DNA of 52,443 nucleotides, from positions 1 to 52,443 of IMG/VR virus record IMGVR_UViG_3300039037_000119; one strand, 5' to 3'. The translations under genes and the position numbers were made by a program. Shown piece by piece: positions 2,484-47,060 of this stretch. This stretch comes from a virus (Duplodnaviria > Caudoviricetes). How positions within the stretch are numbered: position 1 is the stretch's first letter; the number at the start of each line of letters is the position of its first letter. The notes beneath the pieces were generated by a model that saw only the letters and a list, made by a program, of their open reading frames with translations, was not told the DNA's origin and made no database searches.

Positions 2484-2560
2484 GCTTCGGTAGCTTAGCG
2501 GTCTAAAGCATCCGTCTCATAAACGGGAGAGCAAGGGTTCAAATCCCTTTCGAGGCACCA
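2484..2560 (+). tRNA. tRNA with CAU anticodon (elongator Met or lysidine-modified Ile2)
   Basis: Acceptor GCTTCGG/TCGAGGC, D stem GCTT/AAGC, anticodon arm TCCGT-CTCATAA-ACGGG, T arm AAGGG-TTCAAAT-CCCTT, encoded ACCA; G1-C72 pair and no triple G-C in the anticodon stem argue against initiator. Confidence 0.93.
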
Positions 2561-7235: not shown

Positions 7236-7577
7236 ATGTATATACTTATTAAATTAATGAACAGCCCTATATACAGTATTCCAGAAGGAACTTCTGATAA
7301 TGTTAGATATACTTATTACGGCTGGTCAAAAGATATAAAAACTGCAATAAACAATAAGTCTTTTACTACTATATCTTCTTTATACCTACTACATCCAAAA
7401 GAAGCAAAAGCATATATCGACCCAGGTCTTCCTACTACCGGAGAAGATTGTTATATACCACTAGAAAACTGGATAAAATTCTTAGAGATGGTAGATAAGA
7501 TTAAGGTAATTATAAAGCAAGAAACGCCTATCACATTAAGACAGATAGAAACGTACTACCCGGAGTTATTATTATGA
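7236..7577 (+). CDS. PE-tag small protein (YYPELLL*), paralog of 7574..7921
   Basis: Shares YGW and PITLxQIET with the neighbour. Confidence 0.8.
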   Translation: MYILIKLMNSPIYSIPEGTSDNVRYTYYGWSKDIKTAINNKSFTTISSLYLLHPKEAKAYIDPGLPTTGEDCYIPLENWIKFLEMVDKIKVIIKQETPITLRQIETYYPELLL

Positions 7578-28863: not shown

Positions 28864-28864
28864 T

Positions 28865-28887
28865 AGGATGGTCGGTTATCCTTTTTT
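28865..28887 (+). terminator. Intrinsic terminator
   Basis: AGGATGG-TCGG-TTATCCT then T run, directly after a stop codon. Confidence 0.65.
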
Positions 28888-28919
28888 AGCAAGTAACCTA
28901 CTATCATACGCTATTTAAC

Positions 28920-29007
28920 CCCCTATGCCCCTTAAGTTCGCCTCCTAAGCGAATGACAAAAACTATTAAGGTGGAGTCAGGATGTTCGATTCGTCCATAG
29001 GGGACCA
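28920..29007 (+). tRNA. Atypical tRNA-Arg(CCU)-like RNA lacking a D arm
   Basis: Acceptor CCCCTAT/ATAGGGG plus ACCA; anticodon arm TTCGC-CTCCTAA-GCGAA; T arm GGATG-TTCGATT-CGTCC; only 10 nt where the D arm should be; 26-nt variable region. Confidence 0.8.
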
Positions 29008-29015
29008 CATTTATA

Positions 29016-29105
29016 GGCCTATGTACCAGTTAGTTACAGGTGCACTGCATAGGTCCGCCAATAGGTTTTATTTTTTGTCCTATGGCGCATATACTAACCT
29101 GTAAC
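29016..29105 (+). ncRNA. Candidate pseudoknotted RNA element
   Basis: Stem 29016-25/29046-55, stem 29056-65/29079-87, and loop GTTACAGGT (29033-41) complementary to ACCTGTAAC (29097-105). Confidence 0.55.
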
Positions 29106-29172
29106 AGTTAAAGACAATTACCTCCTCTACCTCTTGCGATATGCAGGTAGTTCTTTTGTGCTTTAGCGGACA

Positions 29173-34746: not shown

Positions 34747-34904
34747 TGAAAAATTTCATACAATCCATTGGGATAGTGATGTCGTTAGTCATACTTACAG
34801 TCCTCTCATTTGTTACGCTTTACGTATCCTACATACTAGCAATAGGTATATTAATAGTAGGGCTTATATATATTGTATACTCCCTACTAAGTATGACTAG
34901 ATGA
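34746..34904 (+). CDS. 52-aa membrane protein; not in the ORF track
   Basis: MKNFIQSIGIVMSLVILTVLSFVTLYVSYILAIGILIVGLIYIVYSLLSMTR*; TAATG coupling; GAGGA RBS. Confidence 0.65.
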   Translation: MKNFIQSIGIVMSLVILTVLSFVTLYVSYILAIGILIVGLIYIVYSLLSMTR

Positions 34905-37900
34905 GCCCCATATAGGTCTCTTCTTTAACTAGTGCTGGTGTAGTGATATTAGTAATTATCTCTACAGGATTGGAGTTAGTAAATACATTAGTAAAGGAGA
35001 AATCCCCATCTGTTCCAAACCCTTTAGTTAAGAATGCTTGATCTTGTATATTATCAAGGTCTATAGCTAATACTGCTAATGCTAGTACTGCAGAACTTCT
35101 GATAGGATGTTGTAGTGCAGTAGTAGCAATTACTCGTTGAACCCTTTTCACATACTTAGTGAACATCAACACACCAATCCTATTTAAGTACTCTTCAAAC
35201 CTACCGTTAGGTTTATTGTAGTTAATAAACGAGTCTAACAAATGGTTTATCCTATACTCCTTAGACTTCTCTAAAAACTCATCCCTTAAAGCACCTGTTA
35301 TCTTTACAGGTTTATCGGATTTAATACCTATAGCTTCTCTTAACGCTTTAGGTACAACCCTCTTACCATCCATCATAGCTGTCTCAGCTCTCTTCATCTT
35401 CTTATTCTGCACATCTCTAGCAATCAAATCAGACAACTGTAATATTTCCTGGTTAAATCTATACCATCCAGTCTCTTTACTTAAATACGCCCATTGTAGT
35501 CCTTTACGTACTGCTACAGGACTTTTCTGTAAGACCTTATCCATTTTATCAGATAACGTATTAGAATCCCCTAAAACATCCGTATTTACATCTTCAACCA
35601 CAGACTGAAACAACCCTGCTTCAAATAATTCATGTACAGAGTTCTCTTCCAATTCCTTATTTAAGACTTTCAATCTAGCCTTTTTCTTTTTAATATCTGT
35701 AAGCACACTACTCTTATCGGTAGCATTACTCCTAAGAACACTTTCCAGCTTACTTATTTCAATACCTAACCTATGTATTTCCCTATAACCATCTAGGTAT
35801 GCCTTAGCACTCTGGTAACTCTCCTTATGCATTTGCAATAATTCAATAGGGCCTGCTCCTCCAGTAGTAAGTAAGTACAAGAAGTTACTTACAATATTAC
35901 TTACCAGTATAGCTGGCATTTTCAGTAATATATTACCTTTAGCAATCTTAACCAATTCAATCCAAAACCCTTCCACCATATTAACTAGTTGTGTCAATAC
36001 TTTAGGTAGCACTTTTCTTAGCTTTTCTGTTAGCATCATATGCTTATACCCAAACAACATCGGTACCAGTGAAGCTGGCACTGCCATTGTCTGATCCGCT
36101 CTATGGTTAATGAACTCTTGAAAACTCTTAGGCAGCATATAATAAAGCTCTTTCATCTCTTCGTTTTCGCTTTCAGGTCCAATCAAAACAAACTCTTCAC
36201 CATCTTTCCCTACCGGTCCGAATTCCCAATTCTCTTTCATAGTTTTCTTGATCATATCAAGTACTTTTTCGTTATGTTCTTCTCGTACTTCTTTATCAAT
36301 TATACTTCCCATTGACCTAGATAAAATAGTTATTACATCTGTTTCCTGCCCCAACAACTTTTCTTTCTGCTCTTTACTCATCATATACCTATAGTTAACT
36401 ACTTTCCCTGTAGCATCCTTTATCGGCATCATCCCCATACCAATTTCACTATAATCTATATCTTCGCCTTTACTCATCTTTATACGAATCTTCTCCGCTT
36501 CAAGGTCAATTCTGGCTTTATCTCTTTTAAACAGCTTCCCACCTAGTTCTGGATCCTCTAAGTACTTTATCTCCCTTAGGTCTGTACCTCTAGCAGCCAA
36601 ACTACTTAAATTCGTAGCTCCTCTAAACCTTTCCGCTTTCGAGAACGAGTTCGTTACAAACATCCCTACAGGTTTCTTACGGATCTCTCCATTCTTGGCT
36701 GGTACTTCTCCTTTAAACTCATACCCTGCAGATTCCATTTCTGCTCTTTTACTCATCGGCTTATACGCAATCTCGATACCACTGTCAAAAATTTCTTTAG
36801 AATACCCATCCATCATATGAGCTTCATCACCCTTAAACAACCTAGATCTCGAATCCTTTTTAAACCCTTCGTAGACATCCATAAGATTGCTAACACCTTT
36901 CCAGTCATCTTTCATCAGGTTACTAACTAACTTCTTATCTTCCTTACTAGTATATTGTAATGCTGTTAGCACAGAAATCTCTTCTACTAAAGCCACTAGA
37001 TCCGCATCAATTTTAAATCTCTCATTAGACAAATCACCTTTAACAATACTTCTAGCATTAGTATTTAACCCAGGATGCCCCTGATGAGTAGCCATAAAAT
37101 ATCCTAGCCCTTTACTCTGCCCTACTACCCAATCATACCTATGCCCCTCACCAGCAGCATTTAACGCTCCTTTTAAGGACTTCAATGCAGTCTCACGTCT
37201 CTTTAACCTAGCCTCATCACTATCGAGTACTTTTCTGACATCCCTATTATTATACTTATGCCTAGACCCTCTAGTGTACATCAAAGCACTTAAATTAACA
37301 TCCAATACAGCTCTAGTTAGTGCTCTAGATTCTTTTTCGTTAGGTCTACGTTTAAATGCTGCTTCTAAATCCTTACCAGTTTGTACAATATTAGTGTTAC
37401 GTATCGTATCTAAATGCTCATTCTCAAGACTCAATCTTTCCGCTGCTCTAGCATGGTCTGTAGATGCTACAAAACTACTAAAAAACTCCCTAACAGTCCC
37501 TCCAGCCTTTAAAGGAATGCCCACAGTACTCCAGTTAGACATTAACAAACCTAAGTAGTTTCTATACTTCCTATTAACCATAGCTTTTATAAGAACTTCA
37601 GCAGCAAACTTCATACCAGTAACAAAATCATCTGATTGAGGTACTTTAATCTTATCTTCTACAGTAAAATACTTATCTTGAAACTCTTCAGCCCAATCAG
37701 CAAACTTACCTTCAGTATTATCAATAGCATTATAGAATCTACCTATTAGATTAGTTTCTTCAATATGACTGTCTGCAGTATTATTAATATCCGCCAATCT
37801 AAGACTCAATGCATGTAATTGGGCCACTGCATTATTATTACGCTCTTTAAAAGCATACTTCCCTAACACGATATCGAATAAAGTATGAACAACATTCATT

Positions 37901-39081
37901 ACCTTATCTAGGAAAGTTTTATTGTCAGTATCTTCCTTAATACTATCCATTTTAGTAAGTAACGCAATAGTTTTAGGGTGAGTCAAACCATGAGCTAAAA
38001 ATTCATCTTTAGCATTCTCACTCTCGAATATATAACTATATAACTCTTTAGCTTTAGTCTTATCAGAATCGCTTGCTTCTTCTTCCGGCATATCTAGGTA
38101 ATCCTGCCAACTAACCCTTTCGCTAGCTACCTTAAATAAATGGTTAAGTTCTCTCCTAATAGTAGGTAATTTATCACTATCGCTACGCAAAGCCCATGAA
38201 GTCATACTATGTACTACCTCATGTAAATAAACTTCAGCATTGGACTTTTCTTTAGACTTATCCTTACCTGTAACAATAACCATGTCACTTTCGTCTAGGT
38301 TGATCCAACCACCGGATTTATCCTTCGTATTCTTAATAAACAAGTCCATCTTTCTAAAGAAATGAGGATGCATACCATCTAATAAAGTCTTACCATATTC
38401 TACATATTCTTCACCGGCATTACCTTCATCAATAGTGTTCAACTCATCTAGTAATCTCTTCATCTGGTCTATATCACCATGCGTATACTCATCCCTACGC
38501 TTAGCACCTCGAGTATTCAAACTAGCTCTGTCACTAGCTATTCTAAGCTGCTTACGAATCCTTGCAATCTCCGCATTACCGTTTTCTTTAGCTTGTTCTG
38601 GGTCTAGTGTACTAGTTACCATCTCCTTAGTATTACTAGCTTTATATAGTACAGTACTCATATTAGGTACATACAGTTGCTTACCTCTATAGCTAGGTAA
38701 CGATCTATCTGTACCAGGTTTGAACTTAAAAGTATAAACTTTATCATTATCCAAATTCTTCATAGTAATTGTATATAAATTACCATTATTAATCTGTTCT
38801 ACATCCATCAGAGCAAAACGTATATTAGCCTCTTTACTAAATCCTGCATAGAACACATCAGTAAGCTCTTTCCTAACCGCAGTAAAAAGAACTTCATCCC
38901 TGTGGCTATTAAGAGCTTCTAAATCTTTAGTATCTAAAGTTCTGTAAGCACCAGTAACCTTATCCTGCAGATGACGTAAATCTACCCCATCACTGGTTAC
39001 TTCAATACCTTTATCCAACAACCCGTTAATTTTTGTTAAACTATTTTTAAGGTATTTTTTATACTCTACAGAACAACTCAT
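34897..39081 (-). CDS. Large virion/ejection protein resembling the C-terminal part of the N4-type vRNAP; contains a zincin HExxH motif
   Basis: YLHEVVHSMT..DEFLAHGLT; C-terminal FINYN..GRFEEYLNRIGVLMF recalls N4 gp50 C-termini; TAATG-coupled to the polymerase gene. Confidence 0.7.
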   Translation of the reverse strand: MSCSVEYKKYLKNSLTKINGLLDKGIEVTSDGVDLRHLQDKVTGAYRTLDTKDLEALNSHRDEVLFTAVRKELTDVFYAGFSKEANIRFALMDVEQINNGNLYTITMKNLDNDKVYTFKFKPGTDRSLPSYRGKQLYVPNMSTVLYKASNTKEMVTSTLDPEQAKENGNAEIARIRKQLRIASDRASLNTRGAKRRDEYTHGDIDQMKRLLDELNTIDEGNAGEEYVEYGKTLLDGMHPHFFRKMDLFIKNTKDKSGGWINLDESDMVIVTGKDKSKEKSNAEVYLHEVVHSMTSWALRSDSDKLPTIRRELNHLFKVASERVSWQDYLDMPEEEASDSDKTKAKELYSYIFESENAKDEFLAHGLTHPKTIALLTKMDSIKEDTDNKTFLDKVMNVVHTLFDIVLGKYAFKERNNNAVAQLHALSLRLADINNTADSHIEETNLIGRFYNAIDNTEGKFADWAEEFQDKYFTVEDKIKVPQSDDFVTGMKFAAEVLIKAMVNRKYRNYLGLLMSNWSTVGIPLKAGGTVREFFSSFVASTDHARAAERLSLENEHLDTIRNTNIVQTGKDLEAAFKRRPNEKESRALTRAVLDVNLSALMYTRGSRHKYNNRDVRKVLDSDEARLKRRETALKSLKGALNAAGEGHRYDWVVGQSKGLGYFMATHQGHPGLNTNARSIVKGDLSNERFKIDADLVALVEEISVLTALQYTSKEDKKLVSNLMKDDWKGVSNLMDVYEGFKKDSRSRLFKGDEAHMMDGYSKEIFDSGIEIAYKPMSKRAEMESAGYEFKGEVPAKNGEIRKKPVGMFVTNSFSKAERFRGATNLSSLAARGTDLREIKYLEDPELGGKLFKRDKARIDLEAEKIRIKMSKGEDIDYSEIGMGMMPIKDATGKVVNYRYMMSKEQKEKLLGQETDVITILSRSMGSIIDKEVREEHNEKVLDMIKKTMKENWEFGPVGKDGEEFVLIGPESENEEMKELYYMLPKSFQEFINHRADQTMAVPASLVPMLFGYKHMMLTEKLRKVLPKVLTQLVNMVEGFWIELVKIAKGNILLKMPAILVSNIVSNFLYLLTTGGAGPIELLQMHKESYQSAKAYLDGYREIHRLGIEISKLESVLRSNATDKSSVLTDIKKKKARLKVLNKELEENSVHELFEAGLFQSVVEDVNTDVLGDSNTLSDKMDKVLQKSPVAVRKGLQWAYLSKETGWYRFNQEILQLSDLIARDVQNKKMKRAETAMMDGKRVVPKALREAIGIKSDKPVKITGALRDEFLEKSKEYRINHLLDSFINYNKPNGRFEEYLNRIGVLMFTKYVKRVQRVIATTALQHPIRSSAVLALAVLAIDLDNIQDQAFLTKGFGTDGDFSFTNVFTNSNPVEIITNITTPALVKEETYMGLI

Positions 39082-42000
39082 TACTTACATTCCTTATATT
39101 TATCTGTTACATCACCTAATGCTGACACAAGCTCTAGTATTTCTTTACCTGGAGATGGTGGCTTCTTAGACTTCTTTTTACTCCTAGTATCAGCCATAAC
39201 TTTGTATAGGCCCCTAGTTTCAAACTCAGTCTCATAGTCACTATTAACCTCTACACCTTCTTTGTACATACCACCAGGAGTACCAACCATATTGCCATAC
39301 CAAGCAGTCTTAAGACGATCAGCCCACTCTTCTCTCTTAGCTTTAACTAGGTCAGCTTTGGTTTTAACACGTTCTTGTACCTTACCTAGTACTTCTCCAA
39401 AACCAGGTGCTTCTTTGCCTTTTTTAGTCATGCTTATAGTAGTTTTTAGACTTTTAGAAGAAATCTGATCAAGGTTTACACCATCTAGGTCAATCCTATT
39501 CATCATATTTTGTATCTCTTCTACGATAGAATAACCACTATTGACATTAAACATACCTTTATTATAGCCAAATAGAGCAGTGTTTGACTCATCTAGTGCA
39601 GTCATTATAGCATCATGGATACCTAAAATCCCGGCTTTATCGCTATCAACTTCCTTATAGAACTCTTGGAACATCAAAGCCATCTCAGCACCATCTATAA
39701 AATGGTAAGGTAATACAGAACCAGCACTCCTAGCTTCTTCCATAGAGTAGACTAACGGGTTTATAACAATACCTGTACCACCTTTAGTACCTTCTTTTTT
39801 AAGTTTAGTACGACCAGACAAAGCAGCTTGCTCTATTTGATTAGGTGTACCCAGACCTTTAGATACGACAGGTATAATATCCTTAAAATCTTTTCTCTTA
39901 CTTAGTGGTCCCATAATGTAAGGAAAGTCTGCCCAAAGCTTATCTTGTATCTTACCCATATCCTCTTGGTTAAAATACCCTTTATCTTTATAAGCTTCTT
40001 TAAGCATATTAATACGTTTACTATCGAAAATCCTAAACATAGCTTTAAAAGCATCATTAGTGACTTCTTGTATATCTAAGTATTCGGCAAACTCTTTCTC
40101 AAATACTGTCTTTACCTCTTCCCCGTAGGTATCTTTCATGACACCAGCTAACCCATTGAGCATAGTATCAGTACTATTACCGACTAATTGCATCTTAATA
40201 GCGTTAGCAGGCCTATTCCTGATAGCTTGTTGTAGCTCCTTAGGAGAAATCTTCTTCATAACAGGAGCACCAGCAGCCCCTTCTGTCCTGATACCAAACT
40301 TACGACTATTGGCTAAGTACTCCAACATCAAAGTACCTTTATCTTCAGGATCCTTTAAATCCGCTTTAGCCATGGTAGAAATCAAGTCTTTACTGATATC
40401 AATACCTAAATTCTTAATAATAGTACTAATAGCAGCACTATAGTTAAAAATCATAAAAGGATTTTTAAACATATTACGTAAAGAAGAGCTAATCTCTATA
40501 CTAGATTCATCAACAAGCGTATGTAACATATCAGAACCAGGTAGTACATCTAGTGACGCTAGTTTATTAAACATAGTCTTTTTATAAGCATTTTTCTTAG
40601 CTTCTTTTGTATTACCTTTACCTAAGGCTTCTACTCTATTAGGTAATCCAAGTAGTGTTTTCTTAGCTAGGTTTTTATAGCTATCTAAGAATCCTTCTGC
40701 TCCACCTAAGACATCATTAACAGCCCCATTAGTACCTATCTTAACCTCAAATCCTTGACTCTCTAACTTAGCTAGGTACTCTTCAGTCAATACACCAACC
40801 CTAGCTAAGTGCTCATGCATAGTAGCATCATCGAAGATAGGCATTTGTTGAACCTTGTTAGCAAAACCACTAGTTAAGGAGTCAAATTCTGCAGTAAGCC
40901 TACTGGTAACCTTACCTGTCTTAACCTGCCTCAAGAAATCAATACCATCTAATGCATGTGTAAGATGCTCTGCTTCTACTTTTACAACACCATTAGATGT
41001 TTTAATAGAAGCTTCTCCTTTGTCTAGTAGTTTAGTCTCTAGCTTATCTAGGTCTTTCTCAGTCAACCCCAATAGCTTATTACCAAATTCGATGATAGCT
41101 GGTGTAACTTCTTTATCTATACCAAAACCAAAGGCTTGTCCTAATGCCATCCTAACTAAGAAAGACACCTTCTTACCATCAGAAGTGAACACACCATCTT
41201 TATACTCATACACCCTTTCATTTGCTTTAGGCTGTATAAGAAATCTATGTAATTTATCAGTTTGAGGATTAATTGTAGTACTATCTAGCTGATAACGACC
41301 GTTATTAATATAGTAAAAAGGGAAATACAGATCTAGGTCCTTCCCATCAGCCTTTTCCGCTGTATCCCTAAGATTCTGGATAGATTCTTCTATATCACGG
41401 TTTTTACTGATCTGCATATCTTTTTCTTCAAAAGTCAAAGCTTCAAATGCACTACTCTCAGGGTCTATATACCCAAGCTGTTTAAATACTCCTTCCTTAT
41501 GGGCATCTACTTTAGCTAGGAAATCCACCACCTTACTTGTCTCGAACGTATAGGCAGTATCCATCATGTTACGTAAAGTATCTTGTGCTTCTTTAGGAGG
41601 TACAAACCCAACCTCATCGTTATGTACAGAATTGACCTGATTATTCAAAAACTTTTCACTAAAAGGTTTTAAACTAGGTCCTCTGCCTACTGTACGAACC
41701 TCTGGTAACCTATCAGCAATACCTTCAAATGTAGCCAAGGCTCTATCCACTTTCTTAACAGGTACTTCTTGTTTACTTACCTTGTCTTTCTTACTTACAA
41801 TATTGACAAAACCTACGTTAATCTTATCATTAGACACGTTATAGTCAGATGTAGTATTTTTAAGTAAATCGGCTAAGTCTTTACTAGGCTTATTTTTAAA
41901 CTCTACTAAACCTTCTGCCTCAGCTGCAAGTAAAGCTGTTTGCCCTAACTCTGCAATAAATCTTTCATATGTGTTGTAACCTAGGTCTTTAGCATTTTTC

Positions 42001-45000
42001 TTACTATAACCCAACAACTTAGCCACATTCTTACCAACACTAGTAGCTAAAGTCTTTTTCAAGCTACCGATATCCTTAACGAAGTCCATCATTTCTTTAG
42101 TGACTTCATGAGGCTGTACGTTAAACATTTGACCTATCTGTTCTACGTTTTTATAACCTTTCATTAGCTTACGTTTATCTGTACTAATAGTATCCAGTAC
42201 AGCCAGTCCCATAGCAGCGGCAACCTCAGGAGCAATACCACTGCCATCAAATATCAAAGCTCTAGCAGGAGAATCGTATAGGCCGTACTTAGCAACTCTG
42301 TCACCCTTCTTAACTAGTGTGTCGTACTCTTCTCCTACTGCCTTCTCACCCTTACCTAAAGGTTGTAGAATCTTCTCAAGAGCCTTTTTAAAACGACCGG
42401 CTACTTCTTTAACGTCTCCAGGAAGAGCTTCAACAGGTACAGAACCTAATAGAGTTTTCTTACTAAGAGTAACAAATTTACTAGGATCCACCGTAACCTG
42501 TTTAACACTGATAGGTATTTTTCTATACTTGCGTCCTTTGCTTGTATGAGGTTCTGGTTTCTGTTTTAAATACTCCGTTGCCTCCTCTTCTGAGTACGAT
42601 TCTACAGAGATGGTTTTATCTACACCTTCATCTCTCCATTTACCATTAACAAATACTTCTTTCTTAAAGGTATACTCAACTAGGTCAGGTTTATCTTTAC
42701 CTACAGCCTTCTCTTCTAGTAAACTTTTACTGACAGAGCCCATATCTATAGCCATACCTAGGTCTTTCGCTTTCTTTTCTAAAACCTCTTCAAGCTTCTT
42801 ACCTTTGAGACCCTCTTCTTCTACAGCGTCTTTCCAAAAAGCTAACAGCTCTAATACATCCTTATCAACTGTTTTACTCTTCTCAATATCTCTTTCTGCA
42901 AGAGTGGTAATACTATCAGCATCATAAACAATATCAGCCTCTTCCACTTTACCTGCATTGTACCCTTCCAAAGACTTCTTAACAGCATCTACACGCTCTT
43001 TAAGATTTCTTTCTACATAAGAATCTACCTTATCTGTATCACCTTTAAAGTACTCTTTAGCAACTTCTTTAATAGTTTTATTGTACTCAGTCCTAGAACT
43101 AGTAGAATCCCCGACAGCTAGATCAGCAGCCATCTCCACTATACTATTAAGGGCCTTGTCCTTAACAGCTTTAGCCTTCTTCTCCGTAGCTCGTTCTTTC
43201 TCTACTGCCTTTTTACGTTCAGCAAAGTCTACTACACGAGCATCTGTCTTAGGTACATAAGCATCCGTACCAGGGACATTAGTATAGCCTACCTTATCGC
43301 CAGTAAGAAATCTCCTTACACTGACACTAGCTTTATTGTTAGTCTTGTACTCCCTATCCAGAACAATAGTGGCACCAGCCTTAGCAGCTTTCAACACCTC
43401 TTTCCTAGCAGGGTTACTAGCATCGTACAAAGTAGTGATATAGAAAGTCTTATCACCCTTTTTATATGTAGTTGCCATAGCATTCAATAAAACTACATCA
43501 CTAGCTTGATATTCTTCATCTCCGTTAATAATACCTACATTAGCCTTTCTATAGTCACTATTAGCAGCCCATTTAGGTGAGGTACCTCCATCCTTCTCAT
43601 CAAGAATAACCCTAGATACACGACTAGGTACACCTACCTCATCAAGTACTTTGCTAGTCTTACTTAAATAATTTTCATCATAAGATCTAGCTTTGTCCTT
43701 ACTAGACCCTTTAGGTATGATAAAGGTATCTAAAGCAACTTTATCACCTAGATACTTATAACCTTTAGACCCTACGTCTTTCAAAATGCTTAGAATTTCG
43801 TTACTACGCTCTTTCTTCTTACTAAGACGTTTCTCTGCTTCTTTTAAATCCGGAGTCCACTTGCCACTAACATAAGATACGGCAATATCAAACCTCTTAC
43901 GATTACCTTTCCTATCCTTCTCATCTTTCAAATAGTCAGTAAGGACTAGTACACGTTTACCAGGCTTACCTAACGCATTTAACCTAGCGGCTTCTTCTTT
44001 AGCCTTCTTGATACCCTTCTCTAGATTTTTCTGGGAGTTTAAGGTAGCAGAATAAAAACTAGTCAACCTATCAAATTCTTTCTCTACAGCCTTAGTATCA
44101 GGATCGCCACTCTCTAAAGCACCCATAATCCTATTTTCAGCAGCTAGGAAACCTCTATCACCATCCCTAGCTTCTTCATCTACACTCTCATAGCTCTTAA
44201 TGATCTTACCGATACGTTCTTCACTCATACCGTTAGCTTTACCGAAAGTAGTAAGTTTTCCTACAAACTCATCAGTAATAGCTTTATCACTACCAAGAAT
44301 AGTATGCATCACTCGTTCTGCTTCTATAGCTTTATCAGGTACAGTGGCACCATCCTTCTCTAGAACTTTCTTATCCAGATTAAGATTAGGATTCTTTTCA
44401 ATCATCCCTATAACAGTATCGATAGCGGTGCTAATTTGTTTTTCAGCTTGTGCTAACAATTCTTTATTAGGACTATCAGCAACCCCCTCTCTACTATCCT
44501 GCGCCTTAGATATAAAATCCATAACAGACCCTAGATTATCCTCAGTGATACCTTCATCATTGACGGCTCTAAGACTCTTAACAGAAGATATATAATCAGC
44601 CCTAAGACTAGCTTTAATATCCTCATCTAATACAGGAGGCTCTTCTTTAGAAACTACATACTTATCCTTAATCTCAAGTCCTTTACCTAGTCCTTTCTGT
44701 ACAGCTTGTCCTACTGCACCTACACCTTCAAACTGTACAGCTCCACCAGCACCAGCTAACGCAGCAATACCAGACTCTCTTATATTGTCTTCATCACTGA
44801 CAAACTTCACAAAAGTATCTAGGTCTTGGAACTTCTCACTACCAAACTTCTCGTTGAACATCTCCATCATGGTTTGAGCGTATTCCTGACCAGCTTCTTT
44901 ACTCATATTCAAAGTACCGCCAGTAATAGTCTTACTAACACCTAAAGCAAAATCAGAAAACTCTTTATTACTTAAAGCTTTAACGGTATCTTTAGCGGCC

Positions 45001-47060
45001 CCTAGCATAGCAGGATTCTTCAAAATACCTACATCTACAATTTTCTCTAAGTTCTGGTTAAACATCTGCACACCTAGTCTAGTGGCAAACCAATTAACCT
45101 TATCCATACCCTCTAAAGGAACACCATCATTATTTGCTACAAAAGCATCATACTGGGCGTTAACGTTACCTAGTGCTGCACTTAACTGACCAGATTGTGC
45201 TACTAGTGCTGACTTAAGTCCTTCAGCTCCTGCAAACACTTTTGCTTTCTCAGCTGCTGCTTGAACAGAGTTTAGAGTACCTTCAAGCTTAGCCTTATCA
45301 ATAGCTCGCAGTGCTTTAAACCCTTGAGCACCATAACCAAGCACCTTCAGAATCTTACCAGGGGCTAACCACGCTGCTACTGTACCTAGTGAAGTAGTCA
45401 ACAACTCAGGGGTAGTAATAGCTTCAATAACCCCATTAAACCCAGCCTTCACTCGATCTGCTATAGAAGCATTACCGTCAGTAAGGATATCAAACTGCTT
45501 ACCGACATAGTCCATAGAAGACTCTAATAATAGCGGATTATAACCCGTTACATCATATTTATGGGCAGCCTTATCTTCTTCTGCTATAAGGTCACCACCT
45601 GCTACCTGTTCTGCAAAAAAGTCAGCAGGATCTAATACACCTTCACCATAAAAAGCATCTACAAAACCTTTAAGAGCGTTACCTACCCTATCAAGCCCAT
45701 CCATACTATCTGCTTTATATTTAAGGTATTCCTCGTCTAAAGACCTATTTTGAATCTTTAACGAACTATCTGAAGTACCAGTATCATAATATGTTTCTTT
45801 ACCTAGGTTGAAGTACTCTAGTCCTGATGTGTTATTGGCATCAACATTGTCAAGACCTTCTTTAACCTTACCAGCCCCTAACAAATGAGCAGCAGCTAAA
45901 TAACCTTGTACATCTTCTGGTAGGGTATTATCATCAATAACCCCAATAGAGCGTAATACATTTTCATTGAACGCTAAATTCTCATCAAAAGCCTTATCTT
46001 GCACTTCCTTACTAGATAGAAAATCTTCTAATGATTCTACACCGGACTTACCTGTCCAATTATCAGCATTTTCTAAAGCCTTATTACCTTCTTTAGAGGA
46101 TCCTTTTTTCAGGTACCCTAAAGTTTCTAGAGCAGAGGCACCAAACTGGTAACCTCCAGAGTACCCTAGATCATTACGTACACTATAATCACCACCAGAC
46201 TCTCTATGCAACATAGTATCACGAAAGCTTTTTTTATCCCCAGCAGGTCGAACTGCTTTTTGCTTAACCTGACGTAGGCCAAAACGTTCCTCAAAGTCTT
46301 TCCACAGCTTTTCTTTATCACCAATTTCATACTGTCTAGAATCACCACCAAAAGCACCTACAGACCCATCTGAGTAAGCTTCTGTAGAACCAGTACCAAA
46401 CCTATCCTTAAAACCAGTTTCTAGATCCGCCCTATGGTTCATAGTACTACGATTACCATGCTGTAATCCTTCGGATATCTTCTCAATACCTCTAGGGTAC
46501 AACAATTCCATCCTAGACTGCTCTATATCTACACCGCCAGGACCTATAGTATTACCATAGTAATCTAGTCCATCTTTCCCTTGCTTGTTAGTGTATCTAG
46601 TGTCAGGGTTAGCGCCGCCCCAACGACCATACTTATCTACACCTTCCGTACCAGTACCGTAACCATAGTAAGACCCTAGATCCTCACTAGTACCTTGATA
46701 AGGAGCTAGTTGCCCTGAGGAATCCTTAGTAGTTAATGCTCCTGTCTCAGGGTCTTTAAAAACTCCATATTCACTATATAACCTACCTTCAAGGTACTGT
46801 AACTGTGCAGGGTTATAGTCATTAACAATCTTATTGCCGTACCACTCATCTTCCCTGCCGAAGATAGTACCTTTTTCATCCTGTAAATCATTACCTTGTA
46901 GACCAGTAAGTTTATACTCACCTACACCTAACTTCTTCCCTCTATTCCTAGATAAAGTATCAATTTTACTAGTACGGATATCTTGTTCAAAAGGTTGGTT
47001 TACATAAGCATCATACATCTCATCACTGATATAGGTTCCGAATGGGTCATTGGTAGACAT
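39081..47060 (-). CDS. Virion-encapsidated single-subunit RNA polymerase (N4 vRNAP-like) with N-terminal lysozyme-like domain
   Basis: NGRYQL..NPQTDKLHR, motif A EFDSLTSG, motif B RNMFKNPFMIFNYS, motif C IHDAI; N-terminal RESGGDY..GGYQFG..LAAAHLLGAG. Confidence 0.88.
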   Translation of the reverse strand: MSTNDPFGTYISDEMYDAYVNQPFEQDIRTSKIDTLSRNRGKKLGVGEYKLTGLQGNDLQDEKGTIFGREDEWYGNKIVNDYNPAQLQYLEGRLYSEYGVFKDPETGALTTKDSSGQLAPYQGTSEDLGSYYGYGTGTEGVDKYGRWGGANPDTRYTNKQGKDGLDYYGNTIGPGGVDIEQSRMELLYPRGIEKISEGLQHGNRSTMNHRADLETGFKDRFGTGSTEAYSDGSVGAFGGDSRQYEIGDKEKLWKDFEERFGLRQVKQKAVRPAGDKKSFRDTMLHRESGGDYSVRNDLGYSGGYQFGASALETLGYLKKGSSKEGNKALENADNWTGKSGVESLEDFLSSKEVQDKAFDENLAFNENVLRSIGVIDDNTLPEDVQGYLAAAHLLGAGKVKEGLDNVDANNTSGLEYFNLGKETYYDTGTSDSSLKIQNRSLDEEYLKYKADSMDGLDRVGNALKGFVDAFYGEGVLDPADFFAEQVAGGDLIAEEDKAAHKYDVTGYNPLLLESSMDYVGKQFDILTDGNASIADRVKAGFNGVIEAITTPELLTTSLGTVAAWLAPGKILKVLGYGAQGFKALRAIDKAKLEGTLNSVQAAAEKAKVFAGAEGLKSALVAQSGQLSAALGNVNAQYDAFVANNDGVPLEGMDKVNWFATRLGVQMFNQNLEKIVDVGILKNPAMLGAAKDTVKALSNKEFSDFALGVSKTITGGTLNMSKEAGQEYAQTMMEMFNEKFGSEKFQDLDTFVKFVSDEDNIRESGIAALAGAGGAVQFEGVGAVGQAVQKGLGKGLEIKDKYVVSKEEPPVLDEDIKASLRADYISSVKSLRAVNDEGITEDNLGSVMDFISKAQDSREGVADSPNKELLAQAEKQISTAIDTVIGMIEKNPNLNLDKKVLEKDGATVPDKAIEAERVMHTILGSDKAITDEFVGKLTTFGKANGMSEERIGKIIKSYESVDEEARDGDRGFLAAENRIMGALESGDPDTKAVEKEFDRLTSFYSATLNSQKNLEKGIKKAKEEAARLNALGKPGKRVLVLTDYLKDEKDRKGNRKRFDIAVSYVSGKWTPDLKEAEKRLSKKKERSNEILSILKDVGSKGYKYLGDKVALDTFIIPKGSSKDKARSYDENYLSKTSKVLDEVGVPSRVSRVILDEKDGGTSPKWAANSDYRKANVGIINGDEEYQASDVVLLNAMATTYKKGDKTFYITTLYDASNPARKEVLKAAKAGATIVLDREYKTNNKASVSVRRFLTGDKVGYTNVPGTDAYVPKTDARVVDFAERKKAVEKERATEKKAKAVKDKALNSIVEMAADLAVGDSTSSRTEYNKTIKEVAKEYFKGDTDKVDSYVERNLKERVDAVKKSLEGYNAGKVEEADIVYDADSITTLAERDIEKSKTVDKDVLELLAFWKDAVEEEGLKGKKLEEVLEKKAKDLGMAIDMGSVSKSLLEEKAVGKDKPDLVEYTFKKEVFVNGKWRDEGVDKTISVESYSEEEATEYLKQKPEPHTSKGRKYRKIPISVKQVTVDPSKFVTLSKKTLLGSVPVEALPGDVKEVAGRFKKALEKILQPLGKGEKAVGEEYDTLVKKGDRVAKYGLYDSPARALIFDGSGIAPEVAAAMGLAVLDTISTDKRKLMKGYKNVEQIGQMFNVQPHEVTKEMMDFVKDIGSLKKTLATSVGKNVAKLLGYSKKNAKDLGYNTYERFIAELGQTALLAAEAEGLVEFKNKPSKDLADLLKNTTSDYNVSNDKINVGFVNIVSKKDKVSKQEVPVKKVDRALATFEGIADRLPEVRTVGRGPSLKPFSEKFLNNQVNSVHNDEVGFVPPKEAQDTLRNMMDTAYTFETSKVVDFLAKVDAHKEGVFKQLGYIDPESSAFEALTFEEKDMQISKNRDIEESIQNLRDTAEKADGKDLDLYFPFYYINNGRYQLDSTTINPQTDKLHRFLIQPKANERVYEYKDGVFTSDGKKVSFLVRMALGQAFGFGIDKEVTPAIIEFGNKLLGLTEKDLDKLETKLLDKGEASIKTSNGVVKVEAEHLTHALDGIDFLRQVKTGKVTSRLTAEFDSLTSGFANKVQQMPIFDDATMHEHLARVGVLTEEYLAKLESQGFEVKIGTNGAVNDVLGGAEGFLDSYKNLAKKTLLGLPNRVEALGKGNTKEAKKNAYKKTMFNKLASLDVLPGSDMLHTLVDESSIEISSSLRNMFKNPFMIFNYSAAISTIIKNLGIDISKDLISTMAKADLKDPEDKGTLMLEYLANSRKFGIRTEGAAGAPVMKKISPKELQQAIRNRPANAIKMQLVGNSTDTMLNGLAGVMKDTYGEEVKTVFEKEFAEYLDIQEVTNDAFKAMFRIFDSKRINMLKEAYKDKGYFNQEDMGKIQDKLWADFPYIMGPLSKRKDFKDIIPVVSKGLGTPNQIEQAALSGRTKLKKEGTKGGTGIVINPLVYSMEEARSAGSVLPYHFIDGAEMALMFQEFYKEVDSDKAGILGIHDAIMTALDESNTALFGYNKGMFNVNSGYSIVEEIQNMMNRIDLDGVNLDQISSKSLKTTISMTKKGKEAPGFGEVLGKVQERVKTKADLVKAKREEWADRLKTAWYGNMVGTPGGMYKEGVEVNSDYETEFETRGLYKVMADTRSKKKSKKPPSPGKEILELVSALGDVTDKYKECK

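What the first reader, a model, noticed from the sequence alone, without database searches (positions are those of the whole stretch)
28920..29007. D-armless tRNA-Arg(CCU)-like RNA with a possible pseudoknot replacing the D arm
Seen: perfect acceptor and anticodon stems, a canonical T arm and encoded CCA, but only GCCCCTTAAG between the acceptor and anticodon stems. The variable region forms TGAC/GTCA around an 18-nt loop. CCTTAA (28930-35) is exactly complementary to TTAAGG (28966-71) in that loop, which is followed by TGGA, reminiscent of the D-loop GG. Inference: a topologically rearranged tRNA in which D-arm function is supplied from the variable loop. It may decode AGG, or act as a decoy for anticodon nucleases or other tRNA-binding proteins.
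Basis: partly seen in the sequence, partly recalled or inferred. Interest (0 to 1): 0.75.

Follow-up and report, generated by a model that had tools for sequence, protein, structure and literature searches.

The report
Phage tRNA-Arg with pseudoknotted D domain
This phage gene encodes an arginine tRNA that has no D arm and instead builds that part of its core by pairing with its own variable loop, and it belongs to a widespread, unannotated family of such tRNAs in phages and bacterial tRNA arrays.

Summary
Window 28920-29007 (+) has a 7-bp acceptor stem, a 6-bp anticodon stem with loop CUCCUAA, a canonical T arm and A-CCA, but no D arm. ARAGORN and Rfam do not call it.

It is not a one-off or a pseudogene. 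A covariance model built without the window finds it at 68 bits (E 1.5e-20); the window's canonical tRNA-Met scores 22.

Relatives turned up in IMG/VR phage contigs, metagenomes, three cultured phages (unannotated there) and giant tRNA arrays of Planctomycetota. Only GUA (Tyr), UCU and CCU (Arg) anticodons were seen.

Over 75 distinct sequences the CCUUAA/UUAAGG-type helix is 97% paired, with compensatory changes at 5 of 6 pairs. The crossing variable-region stem is 89% paired, 3 of 3 compensatory.

A U-GG motif follows the helix in 72 of 75 sequences. In Arg members the next base is A in 16 of 17, matching the A20 identity element.

Phage arrays carrying the Tyr form never carry a canonical tRNA-Tyr (0 of 15). 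AGG is 18.7% of the window's Arg codons.

Most likely it is a working AGG-decoding tRNA. Expression, charging and decoding are untested. No description was found in ten literature searches.

The parts
28920..28926 (+). Acceptor stem, 5' strand (CCCCTAT)
   Evidence: Pairs 7 of 7 with 28997-29003. The acceptor helix is 98.2% paired over 75 relatives.
28927..28929 (+). Connector G-CC. G8 may form an 8th acceptor pair with C28996. The CC may pair with GG 28973-74 or stay free.
   Evidence: Column 8:84 is paired in 72 of 75 relatives. The CC/GG pairs appear in the MFE fold. Their role is inferred.
28930..28935 (+). D-helix 5' strand (CCTTAA), running directly into the anticodon stem
   Evidence: Pairs with 28966-71. 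Compensatory changes occur at 5 of 6 pairs in relatives.
28936..28954 (+). Anticodon arm: GTTCGC / CTCCTAA / GCGAAT, with anticodon CCT at 28944-46, U33 and A37
   Evidence: The stem is 94.9% paired with 6 of 6 pairs compensatory in relatives.
28955..28957 (+). Variable stem 5' strand (GAC)
   Evidence: Pairs with GTC 28976-78 and crosses the D-helix, which makes a pseudoknot. Relatives are 89.3% paired with 3 of 3 pairs compensatory. A register-free test exceeds the cross-sequence control.
28958..28965 (+). A-rich linker (AAAAACTA)
   Evidence: Variable in length and A-rich in all relatives (alignments). Its role is unknown.
28966..28971 (+). D-helix 3' strand (TTAAGG)
   Evidence: As for 28930-35.
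28972..28975 (+). U-GG-A. The GG is proposed to stand in for G18 G19, and the A for the A20 arginine identity element.
   Evidence: GG is present in 72 of 75 relatives. A follows GG in 16 of 17 Arg members, against 17 of 69 Tyr members. The structural role is inferred.
28976..28978 (+). Variable stem 3' strand (GTC)
   Evidence: As for 28955-57.
28980..28996 (+). T arm: GGATG / TTCGATT / CGTCC
   Evidence: The T-loop is close to the tRNA consensus.
28997..29007 (+). Acceptor stem 3' strand (ATAGGGG), discriminator A and encoded CCA
   Evidence: CCA is encoded in all 23 phage and metagenome members of alignment A4.
28866..28887 (+). Hairpin followed by a T run just after the upstream ORF; a possible terminator that would separate the element from upstream transcription
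   Evidence: Read by eye and present in the fold. The terminator scan did not list it.

Best explanation
Window 28920-29007 is a real gene for a non-canonical tRNA-Arg(CCU) of an N4/AD45-like phage.

The D arm is absent. Six bases directly 5' of the anticodon stem (CCUUAA) pair with six bases in an enlarged variable loop (UUAAGG). This gives a helix that can stack on the 6-bp anticodon stem, about 12 bp in all, roughly the length of the normal anticodon/D domain. A short stem (GAC/GUC) closes the variable region and crosses that helix, so the core is a pseudoknot. The U-GG-A that follows the helix is proposed to do the work of D-loop G18 G19 (docking on the T loop) and of A20 (recognition by ArgRS). 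The acceptor and T helices total 12 bp, as EF-Tu requires.

The RNA is proposed to be cut out by RNase P, charged by the host ArgRS through A20-like A, C35, U36 and A73, and used to read AGG. AGG is common in this phage's late genes.

Shown here: the sequence features, family membership, covariation of both helices, genomic context, and isotype-specific bases. Inferred: the 3D arrangement, processing, charging and decoding.
For: 1. Family membership. Model R2, built from 54 relatives without the window, scores the element at 68.0 bits (E 1.5e-20) with no non-standard pair. The window's tRNA-Met scores 22.2.

2. Score separation. In 911,865 bases of tRNA-rich loci, scores are bimodal. 31 hits lie at 64.5-86.7 bits, the next is at 45.6, and canonical tRNAs are at or below about 34.

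3. Covariation over 75 distinct sequences. The acceptor helix is 98.2% paired, the D-helix 97.1% (5 of 6 pairs compensatory), the anticodon stem 94.9%, the V stem 89.3% (3 of 3 compensatory) and the T stem 95.7%. The covariation score is 0.616, against 0.186 for shuffles (0 of 500 reach it) and 0.08-0.15 for slid partners.

4. Arg-only set of 17 distinct sequences: the D-helix is paired in 93 of 93 cells and the acceptor in 119 of 119.

5. tRNA context. Tyr-type members sit inside tRNA arrays on the same strand, a few bases from their neighbours. Two arrays, with 27 and 29 ARAGORN tRNAs, cover 19 amino acids and lack only Tyr. Among 36 loci with 10 or more tRNAs, the Tyr form and a canonical Tyr co-occur in 0, the Tyr form alone in 15, canonical alone in 7, and neither in 14. 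In four whole phage contigs the only GUA match is this form.

6. Identity elements. Arginine identity is A20, C35, U/C36 and A/G73 (PMC9976931, section 9, read). The element has C35, U36, A73 and an A right after GG. That A is present in 16 of 17 Arg members of this subfamily. It is also present in 8 of 8 and 17 of 17 (by eye) members of a second Arg subfamily. Only 17 of 69 Tyr members have it.

7. Codon demand. AGG accounts for 105 of 14,256 codons, 18.7% of Arg codons, and 84 of the 105 lie in the minus-strand late genes.

8. Feasibility. E. coli HisRS, EF-Tu and the ribosome accept an engineered D-arm-less tRNA (PMC11551756, abstract).
Against: There is no expression, processing, charging or decoding evidence for any member.

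The window element is solitary. The nearest tRNA gene lies 26 kb away, so the array argument is borrowed from the Tyr members.

Five of five Planctomycetota genomes checked carry a canonical tRNA-Tyr as well as the pseudoknotted one. There the odd form is not needed for basic decoding.

One Arg member has U, not A, after GG (L187). One cultured-phage Tyr member lacks the GG.

The alignments used for counting were fitted to the model's nested structure, which favours those pairs. The V stem was not in the model, and subfamily 1 was counted on a structure-blind MAFFT alignment.

No sigma-70-like promoter was found next to the element. N4-like phages use their own polymerases (recalled), so this carries little weight.
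Confidence: 0.62

Rival explanations
1. It is a structured tRNA mimic that does not work in translation. It could be a decoy or sponge for host tRNA-targeting nucleases or other tRNA-binding proteins, or an amino-acid donor for a non-ribosomal reaction.
For: Planctomycetota keep a canonical tRNA-Tyr beside the pseudoknotted one (5 of 5 genomes). Only Tyr and Arg anticodons were seen among family-level hits. tRNA-Tyr is a known target of an anti-phage effector, and phage tRNA-Tyr counters it (PMC11555353, abstract). Aminoacyl-tRNA is used outside the ribosome by a phage enzyme (PMC13219725, passages).
Against: Conservation of a 7-nt anticodon loop with U33 and A37, of the 12-bp acceptor/T branch, of A73-CCA and of the Arg-specific A after GG fits a charged, decoding tRNA. 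Arrays that cover 19 amino acids and have this form as the only Tyr candidate argue for decoding. A decoy would not need to be mutually exclusive with the canonical gene.
Confidence: 0.22
2. It is the same gene and function, but with no pseudoknot. The CCUUAA/UUAAGG helix simply extends the anticodon arm in a three-way junction, and the short GAC/GUC stem does not form at the same time.
For: The nested fold is the MFE at -26.9 kcal/mol. Swapping in the V stem gives only -21.3 to -21.7. In the window the V stem is 3 bp. At fixed columns it is paired in only 71% of 20 sequences.
Against: With more sequences the V stem is 89.3% paired with compensatory changes at all 3 pairs (UA 41, CG 18, GC 7, AU 1 at the middle pair). 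Register-free complementarity averages 3.45 pairs, against 2.86 +/- 0.075 (maximum 3.13) in 500 cross-sequence controls. The stem was not part of the model used to align the sequences.
Confidence: 0.2
3. It is a decaying tRNA pseudogene, or a tRNA fragment left by recombination, with accidental complementarity.
For: Standard tRNA finders reject it. Syntenic AD45-like phages lack it.
Against: The same architecture recurs in 17 distinct Arg and 69 distinct Tyr sequences from unrelated contigs, with compensatory changes in every helix. The element is identical in contigs of four runs from four studies, while nearby intergenic bases vary.
Confidence: 0.03

Closest known systems
Canonical bacterial and phage tRNA-Arg(CCU)
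   Same: It shares the acceptor stem, the anticodon loop CUCCUAA, the T arm, A73-CCA, and the Arg identity bases C35 and U36. Normal examples with the same anticodon arm occur in other phage contigs.
   Different: There is no D hairpin. The variable region is 26 nt and pairs with the 5' connector. ARAGORN and Rfam RF00005 do not find it.
D-arm-lacking mitochondrial tRNAs of animals, such as mt-tRNA-Ser(AGY) and nematode tRNAs (PMC7609411, passages read)
   Same: No D hairpin sits between the acceptor and anticodon stems, yet they are functional adaptors.
   Different: The mitochondrial forms are shortened, replace the arm by a flexible connector, and often lose T-loop/D-loop contacts. This family is full length (84-91 nt). 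It rebuilds a D-like helix with the variable loop, keeps a consensus T loop and a GG, and occurs in phages and bacteria.
8/4 and 9/3 'allo-tRNAs', and the 8/4 tRNA-Ser and tRNA-His of phages (Mukai et al., PMC5389517, passages read)
   Same: Most family members have an 8-bp acceptor stem and a 4-bp T stem (column 8:84 paired in 72 of 75), a long variable region, and a home in phage tRNA clusters.
   Different: Allo-tRNAs have a D stem-loop (long stem, tetraloop). A term search of that paper found no pseudoknot. The isotypes also differ (Ser, His, Cys, Sec against Tyr, Arg). The window element can be drawn as 7/5 or as 8/4.
Bacterial class II tRNA-Tyr
   Same: The Tyr members share the GUA anticodon loop CUGUAAA, A73 and a stem in the variable region. 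The 5' UUCC(C/U) resembles positions 8-12 of E. coli tRNA-Tyr (recalled, not tested).
   Different: The canonical D loop and D-stem 3' strand are missing, and the partner strand plus GG lie in the variable loop. Planctomycetota carry both kinds.
Engineered D-arm-less 'mini HisT' in E. coli (PMC11551756, abstract)
   Same: It shows that a bacterial synthetase, EF-Tu and the ribosome can use a tRNA without a D arm.
   Different: It is man-made and truncated, with no compensating pseudoknot. The same abstract states that all known bacterial tRNAs are canonical.
tRNA-like structures at the 3' ends of plant RNA virus genomes (recalled; PMC5723415 seen in a search listing only)
   Same: They are pseudoknot-containing tRNA mimics that can be aminoacylated.
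   Different: Their pseudoknot builds the acceptor stem, they are part of a genome end, and they do not decode. Here the pseudoknot replaces the D arm of a free-standing gene with an anticodon loop.

Membership tests
Canonical tRNA (cloverleaf; Rfam RF00005) | 7-bp acceptor stem, discriminator base and 3' CCA | tested here: met
   28920-26 pairs with 28997-29003, followed by A and CCA.
Canonical tRNA (cloverleaf; Rfam RF00005) | Anticodon stem with a 7-nt loop, U33 and a purine at position 37 | tested here: met
   GTTCGC / CTCCTAA / GCGAAT.
Canonical tRNA (cloverleaf; Rfam RF00005) | T arm with a T-loop consensus | tested here: met
   GGATG / TTCGATT / CGTCC.
Canonical tRNA (cloverleaf; Rfam RF00005) | D stem-loop between the acceptor and anticodon stems | tested here: not met
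   Only 10 nt lie there, with no hairpin.
Canonical tRNA (cloverleaf; Rfam RF00005) | Recognised by tRNA gene finders and the covariance model | tested here: not met
   ARAGORN gives no call. Rfam gives no match at gathering score or at E<=10. tRNAscan-SE was not available.
Canonical tRNA (cloverleaf; Rfam RF00005) | Aminoacylated and used by the ribosome | not testable with these tools
   No RNA run holds the locus. No biochemical data exist.
Pseudoknotted-D-domain tRNA family defined here (models R1, R2) | Family-level score with a model that excludes the query | tested here: met
   68.0 bits, E 1.5e-20, full length, no non-standard pair.
Pseudoknotted-D-domain tRNA family defined here (models R1, R2) | 6-bp helix between the bases 5' of the anticodon stem and the variable loop | tested here: met
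   CCTTAA/TTAAGG pairs 6 of 6. The family shows covariation.
Pseudoknotted-D-domain tRNA family defined here (models R1, R2) | Short stem closing the variable region and crossing that helix | tested here: met
   GAC/GTC is 3 bp in the window. The family is 89.3% paired. Whether both helices form at once cannot be tested here.
Pseudoknotted-D-domain tRNA family defined here (models R1, R2) | Bulged pyrimidine followed by GG after the helix | tested here: met
   T-GG at 28972-74. GG is present in 72 of 75.
Pseudoknotted-D-domain tRNA family defined here (models R1, R2) | Location inside a tRNA gene cluster (typical, not defining) | tested here: not met
   The element stands alone in a 277-nt gap between an ORF and a RusA-like gene. 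The only other tRNA is at 2484-2560. The record is about 50% of a genome.
8/4 allo-tRNA group (Mukai et al.) | 8-bp acceptor stem with a 4-bp T stem | tested here: inconclusive
   G28927 can pair with C28996 in place of G28980, so both 7/5 and 8/4 drawings fit. 72 of 75 relatives fit 8/4.
8/4 allo-tRNA group (Mukai et al.) | D stem-loop with a long stem and a tetraloop | tested here: not met
   No D hairpin is present. The feature is as described in PMC5389517.
Animal mitochondrial D-arm-lacking tRNAs | Organellar origin, truncated length, D arm replaced by an unpaired connector | tested here: not met
   The element lies in a phage contig, is 88 nt long, and its connector is paired with the variable loop.

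The most novel reading that the evidence does not exclude
This is a third architecture of cellular and viral tRNA, beside the cloverleaf and the truncated mitochondrial forms. The D arm is assembled as a pseudoknot from the variable loop. The fold is used for Tyr and Arg by many phages and by mobile long tRNA arrays. It would have been selected because it keeps charging and decoding while escaping host nucleases that recognise the normal tRNA-Tyr or tRNA-Arg core or anticodon arm. Present gene finders miss it, so phage and array tRNA repertoires are systematically under-counted.
Probability: 0.3. Interest if true: 0.95.

Novelty: new variant of a known kind. Interest (0 to 1): 0.88.

Why it matters
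If these RNAs are charged and decode, the statement that all bacterial tRNAs are cloverleaves (PMC11551756, abstract) no longer holds, and the L-shape can be built by a different strand topology.

That bears on several things:
- How synthetases, RNase P, EF-Tu, modification enzymes and the ribosome read the tRNA core.
- tRNA annotation. ARAGORN, Rfam and three GenBank phage records miss these genes, so 'missing' tRNA-Tyr in phage arrays may be an artefact.
- Phage-host conflict over tRNAs.
- The design of orthogonal tRNAs.

For this phage it explains how AGG-rich late genes, including the virion RNA polymerase, may be translated.

Tried and rejected
- blastn of the intergenic region and of 20 kb around it against cultured phages: no match.
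- Relatives of the RusA-like neighbour in IMG/VR: none.
- Exact T-arm-plus-acceptor string in IMG/VR: none.
- Window-specific anticodon arm pattern in IMG/VR: only five normal tRNA-Arg(CCU) genes.
- DNA-polymerase relatives L003-L017 (37-60% identity): none carries a family member. L013 and L016 have T-loop-like motifs but score only 12-15 bits with R1. AD45-P1 has no tRNA-like element in the syntenic gap.
- Subfamily-1 signature pattern in IMG/VR: no hit.
- blastn of two Tyr members against cultured phages: no hit. A third query found the cultured examples.
- Sequencing runs: no RNA holder listed.
- Contigs of four DNA runs carry the element unchanged, so they give no covariation.
- Sigma-70 promoter scan: nothing near the element.
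- The idea that the loop CCUCCUAA mimics the anti-Shine-Dalgarno sequence was dropped once relatives showed other anticodons in the same place.
- An attP or tRNA-fragment origin was dropped, because both acceptor strands and all helices covary.
- Supplementary files of the papers were not seen. Those of PMC5389517 and PMC8421152 list tRNA sequences and could include members of this family.

Full report
**What is there.**
The window is an IMG/VR virus record of 52,443 bases, estimated at 50% complete. Its genes are those of an N4-like podovirus. They include a helicase, a family A DNA polymerase, a RusA-like resolvase, ribonucleotide reductase, a Clp-like protease, and a virion RNA polymerase in two adjacent ORFs. 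The closest cultured relatives are Alteromonas phages AD45-P1 to P4, with 54-55% polymerase identity and the same gene order.

The element lies on the + strand in a 277-nt gap (28864-29140). The gap sits between a 113-aa ORF of no known family and the RusA-like gene.

ARAGORN finds only a tRNA-Met at 2484-2560. Rfam finds nothing at the element, at gathering score or at E<=10.

**Fold of the single sequence.**
The MFE fold is -26.9 kcal/mol, z -2.48. It has these parts, in order:
- the 7-bp acceptor stem;
- G8;
- a helix CC-CCUUAA / UUAAGG-U-GG that continues without a break into a 6-bp anticodon stem;
- an 11-nt bulge on the 3' side;
- a 5-nt connector;
- the T arm.

The CCUUAA/UUAAGG helix lowers the energy from -20.3 to -23.8 kcal/mol. 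The two helices cross, so if both form the core is a pseudoknot. One sequence cannot decide this.

**Finding relatives.**
Nucleotide searches and close-protein searches gave nothing, and polymerase relatives lack the element. Structure-shaped patterns were productive.
- A metagenome scan asked for a CUCCUAA loop, 24-39 bases, a T loop and ACCA. It returned 11 loci. By eye, ten are D-arm-less tRNA-like genes in two layouts.
- An IMG/VR scan for AGGTGG, a T loop and ACCA gave 80 matches in 79 loci. ARAGORN called 53 of them canonical tRNAs. Most of the other 27 showed the window's layout with GUA or UCU anticodons.

From 14 of these sequences I built model R1. Over 911,865 bases of loci its scores were bimodal. 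There were 31 hits at 64.5-86.7 bits, the next hit was at 45.6, and canonical tRNAs were at or below about 34. Six hits were new sequences that no pattern had forced.

Further members:
- A genome scan for the Tyr layout gave 54 loci with 52 distinct sequences. Nearly all are Planctomycetota, including complete chromosomes.
- blastn with one of these found Pseudomonas phages Rembedalsseter and Lyrsu01-03 and Rhizobium phage RHph_N3_2. R1 scores in three of them are 80-83 bits. Nothing is annotated at those places, although Lyrsu02 has the adjacent tRNA-Pro annotated.
It added 11 distinct window-like Arg members and 17 of the second layout.

**Is the window element a member?**
Model R2 was built from 54 relatives and excludes the window. 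It finds 28920-29007 at 68.0 bits, E 1.5e-20, full length, with every modelled pair standard. The canonical tRNA-Met scores 22.2.

**Covariation.**
Counts on 75 distinct sequences:

| Helix | Cells paired | Pairs with compensatory change |
|---|---|---|
| Acceptor (8 bp) | 98.2% | 8 of 8 |
| D-helix | 97.1% | 5 of 6 |
| Anticodon stem | 94.9% | 6 of 6 |
| Crossing V stem | 89.3% | 3 of 3 |
| T stem (4 bp) | 95.7% | 3 of 4 |

The covariation score is 0.616. Shuffles give 0.186 and none of 500 reaches the observed value. Slid partners give 0.08-0.15.

The V stem was not part of the alignment model. A register-free test gives 3.45 contiguous pairs, against 2.86 +/- 0.075 (maximum 3.13) when the strands are exchanged between sequences.

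Among the 17 distinct Arg members of the window's layout, the D-helix is paired in 93 of 93 cells, with up to five pair types per column.

The second Arg layout has a 3-bp helix and a longer spacer before GG. It is 100% paired in all four helices on a structure-blind MAFFT alignment of 8 sequences.

Two caveats apply. The R1 and R2 alignments lean towards the modelled helices, and related sequences inflate the shuffle tests.

**Reading the architecture (inference).**
The strand 5' of the anticodon stem runs straight into that stem. It therefore occupies the place of the normal D-stem 3' strand. Its partner comes from the variable loop and is followed by U-GG, which is present in 72 of 75 sequences. 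That is the order 'stem strand, then GG' seen in a D loop.

The D-helix and anticodon stem together give 12 stacked pairs, close to the length of the normal anticodon/D limb. The acceptor and T helices give 12 pairs, as 8/4 in most members and as 7/5 or 8/4 in the window.

**Function.**
The Tyr members sit inside tRNA arrays, on the same strand and a few bases from their neighbours.
- Arrays with 27 and 29 ARAGORN tRNAs cover 19 amino acids and lack only Tyr.
- Among 36 loci with 10 or more tRNAs, the pseudoknotted Tyr and a canonical Tyr never co-occur. The counts are 0 with both, 15 with the pseudoknotted form only, 7 with the canonical form only, and 14 with neither. Some of these loci are near-duplicates.
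- In four whole phage contigs the only GUA candidate is this form.

In Planctomycetota the gene lies in arrays of 16-39 tRNAs that otherwise lack Tyr. A canonical tRNA-Tyr sits elsewhere, in a Thr-Tyr-Gly-Thr cluster. Only 6 of 121 sampled genomes of that phylum have a hit at E<=1e-8, and at most 36 candidates were scored per genome. This fits accessory long arrays of the kind described by Santamaria-Gomez et al. (PMC8421152). A term search of that paper found no occurrence of tRNATyr and no relevant use of 'non-canonical' or 'unusual'.

For arginine, the identity set is A20, C35, U/C36 and A/G73 (PMC9976931, section 9). The window element has C35, U36 and A73. It also has an A immediately after GG. 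So do 16 of 17 Arg members of its layout, and 8 of 8 plus 17 of 17 members of the second layout (read by eye). Only 17 of 69 Tyr members do.

The phage uses AGG for 105 of 14,256 codons, 18.7% of its Arg codons. Of those, 84 lie in the minus-strand late genes.

A D-arm-less engineered tRNA is accepted by an E. coli synthetase, EF-Tu and the ribosome (PMC11551756, abstract).

Together these points make a decoding tRNA-Arg(CCU) the best reading, at about 0.6. Nothing here shows expression, processing, charging or decoding. No RNA run holds the locus.

**Why this fold?**
This is open. Only Tyr and Arg anticodons appear among family-level hits. tRNA-Tyr is degraded by the retron-Eco7 effector and supplied back by phage T5 (PMC11555353, abstract). 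That colicin D targets tRNA-Arg is recalled, not checked. Escape from tRNA-directed nucleases is therefore an attractive hypothesis, but an untested one. A pure decoy role remains possible, especially where a canonical gene coexists.

**Novelty.**
Ten full-text searches were made. They covered D-arm-lacking or pseudoknotted tRNAs in phages and bacteria, Planctomycetes tRNA-Tyr, and tRNA arrays.

They returned mitochondrial cases, allo-tRNAs with D arms (PMC5389517, passages), a 2020 review with no phage case (PMC7609411, passages), and a 2024 abstract stating that all known bacterial tRNAs are canonical. I found no description of this fold.

The library lacks most subscription journals, and supplements were closed, so prior description cannot be excluded.

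I file it as a new structural variant of tRNA, and the window element as an Arg(CCU) member.

**Population data.**
The DNA occurs nearly unchanged in hydrothermal-vent metagenomes of four studies. Some of these may be the source of the window itself. The element is invariant in them, while 28701, 29037 and 29045 vary.

Noticed in passing
L024:7114-7193, L031:639-718, L033:7-86, L023:396-476, L030:320-400, L026:514-594 and 895-976, L098:7694-7779; plus 17 more in L182-L258: A second layout of D-arm-less tRNA-Arg (CCU and UCU), 77-84 nt long. It reads acceptor, GUAxC, a 3-6-bp helix to the variable region, a 4-bp anticodon stem, the spacer UAAC, then GGA. All four helices are 100% paired in 8 sequences on a MAFFT alignment.
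   Followed up: partly
L129, L152, L137, L117, L123 (Planctomycetota genome contigs): Giant tRNA arrays of 16-39 tRNA genes within 8 kb carry the pseudoknotted Tyr gene between tRNA-Glu(CUC) and tRNA-Leu(CAA). The canonical tRNA-Tyr sits in a separate Thr-Tyr-Gly-Thr cluster.
   Followed up: partly
L179:513-600 (PQ464593.1), L181:601-688 (PP179324.1), L180:1495-1583 (MN988526.1): Cultured Pseudomonas and Rhizobium phages carry a pseudoknotted Tyr-type gene, often next to the terminase small subunit gene. It is unannotated in GenBank.
   Followed up: yes
window 34897-39081 and 39081-47060, minus strand: The N4-like virion RNA polymerase is split into two abutting ORFs of 2659 and 1394 aa. The AD45-P1 record flags a 'potential frameshift' in its homologue. 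These two ORFs hold 61 of the window's 105 AGG codons.
   Followed up: no
window 2484-2560: A canonical tRNA-Met(CAU) with encoded CCA, 65.7 bits with Rfam tRNA. It is the only standard tRNA in the window.
   Followed up: no
L013:6843-7787: In a distant polymerase relative, the gap after the polymerase gene is 945 nt. It holds several tRNA-like pieces: a T arm at about 7243, and a 7-bp acceptor pairing GCAGAAG...CTTCTGC-T-CCA at about 7283-7400. Neither ARAGORN, Rfam nor R1 recognises them.
   Followed up: partly
L002:7830-7880; L004-L008 gaps after the polymerase gene: AD45-like relatives carry one to three copies of a conserved hairpin (CCGGTG-GGGTGCTC.ATAATC-CACCGG type) in the polymerase-RusA gap where the window has the tRNA. 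It may be a phage promoter or regulatory site.
   Followed up: no
L101 (minus strand, elements of 88 and 99 nt listed): Other tRNA-like genes that ARAGORN does not call, with greatly enlarged D regions (for example a CUU anticodon with a 5-bp D stem and an 18-nt loop).
   Followed up: no
L041, L047, L049, L065 and other loci with 15 or more tRNAs: Ten phage loci with 15-35 ARAGORN tRNAs have neither a canonical nor this pseudoknotted tRNA-Tyr. Further undetected forms may exist, or Tyr may lie outside the stretch fetched.
   Followed up: no
L098:5466-5828: A phage contig with 22 tRNAs, a tmRNA, a pseudoknotted Tyr and a second-layout Arg(UCU).
   Followed up: no
L209 and L226: A tRNA-Arg(UCU)-like gene with a normal D arm but a long stem-loop (GGGTAACACCC) in the variable region. 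That is unusual for Arg.
   Followed up: no
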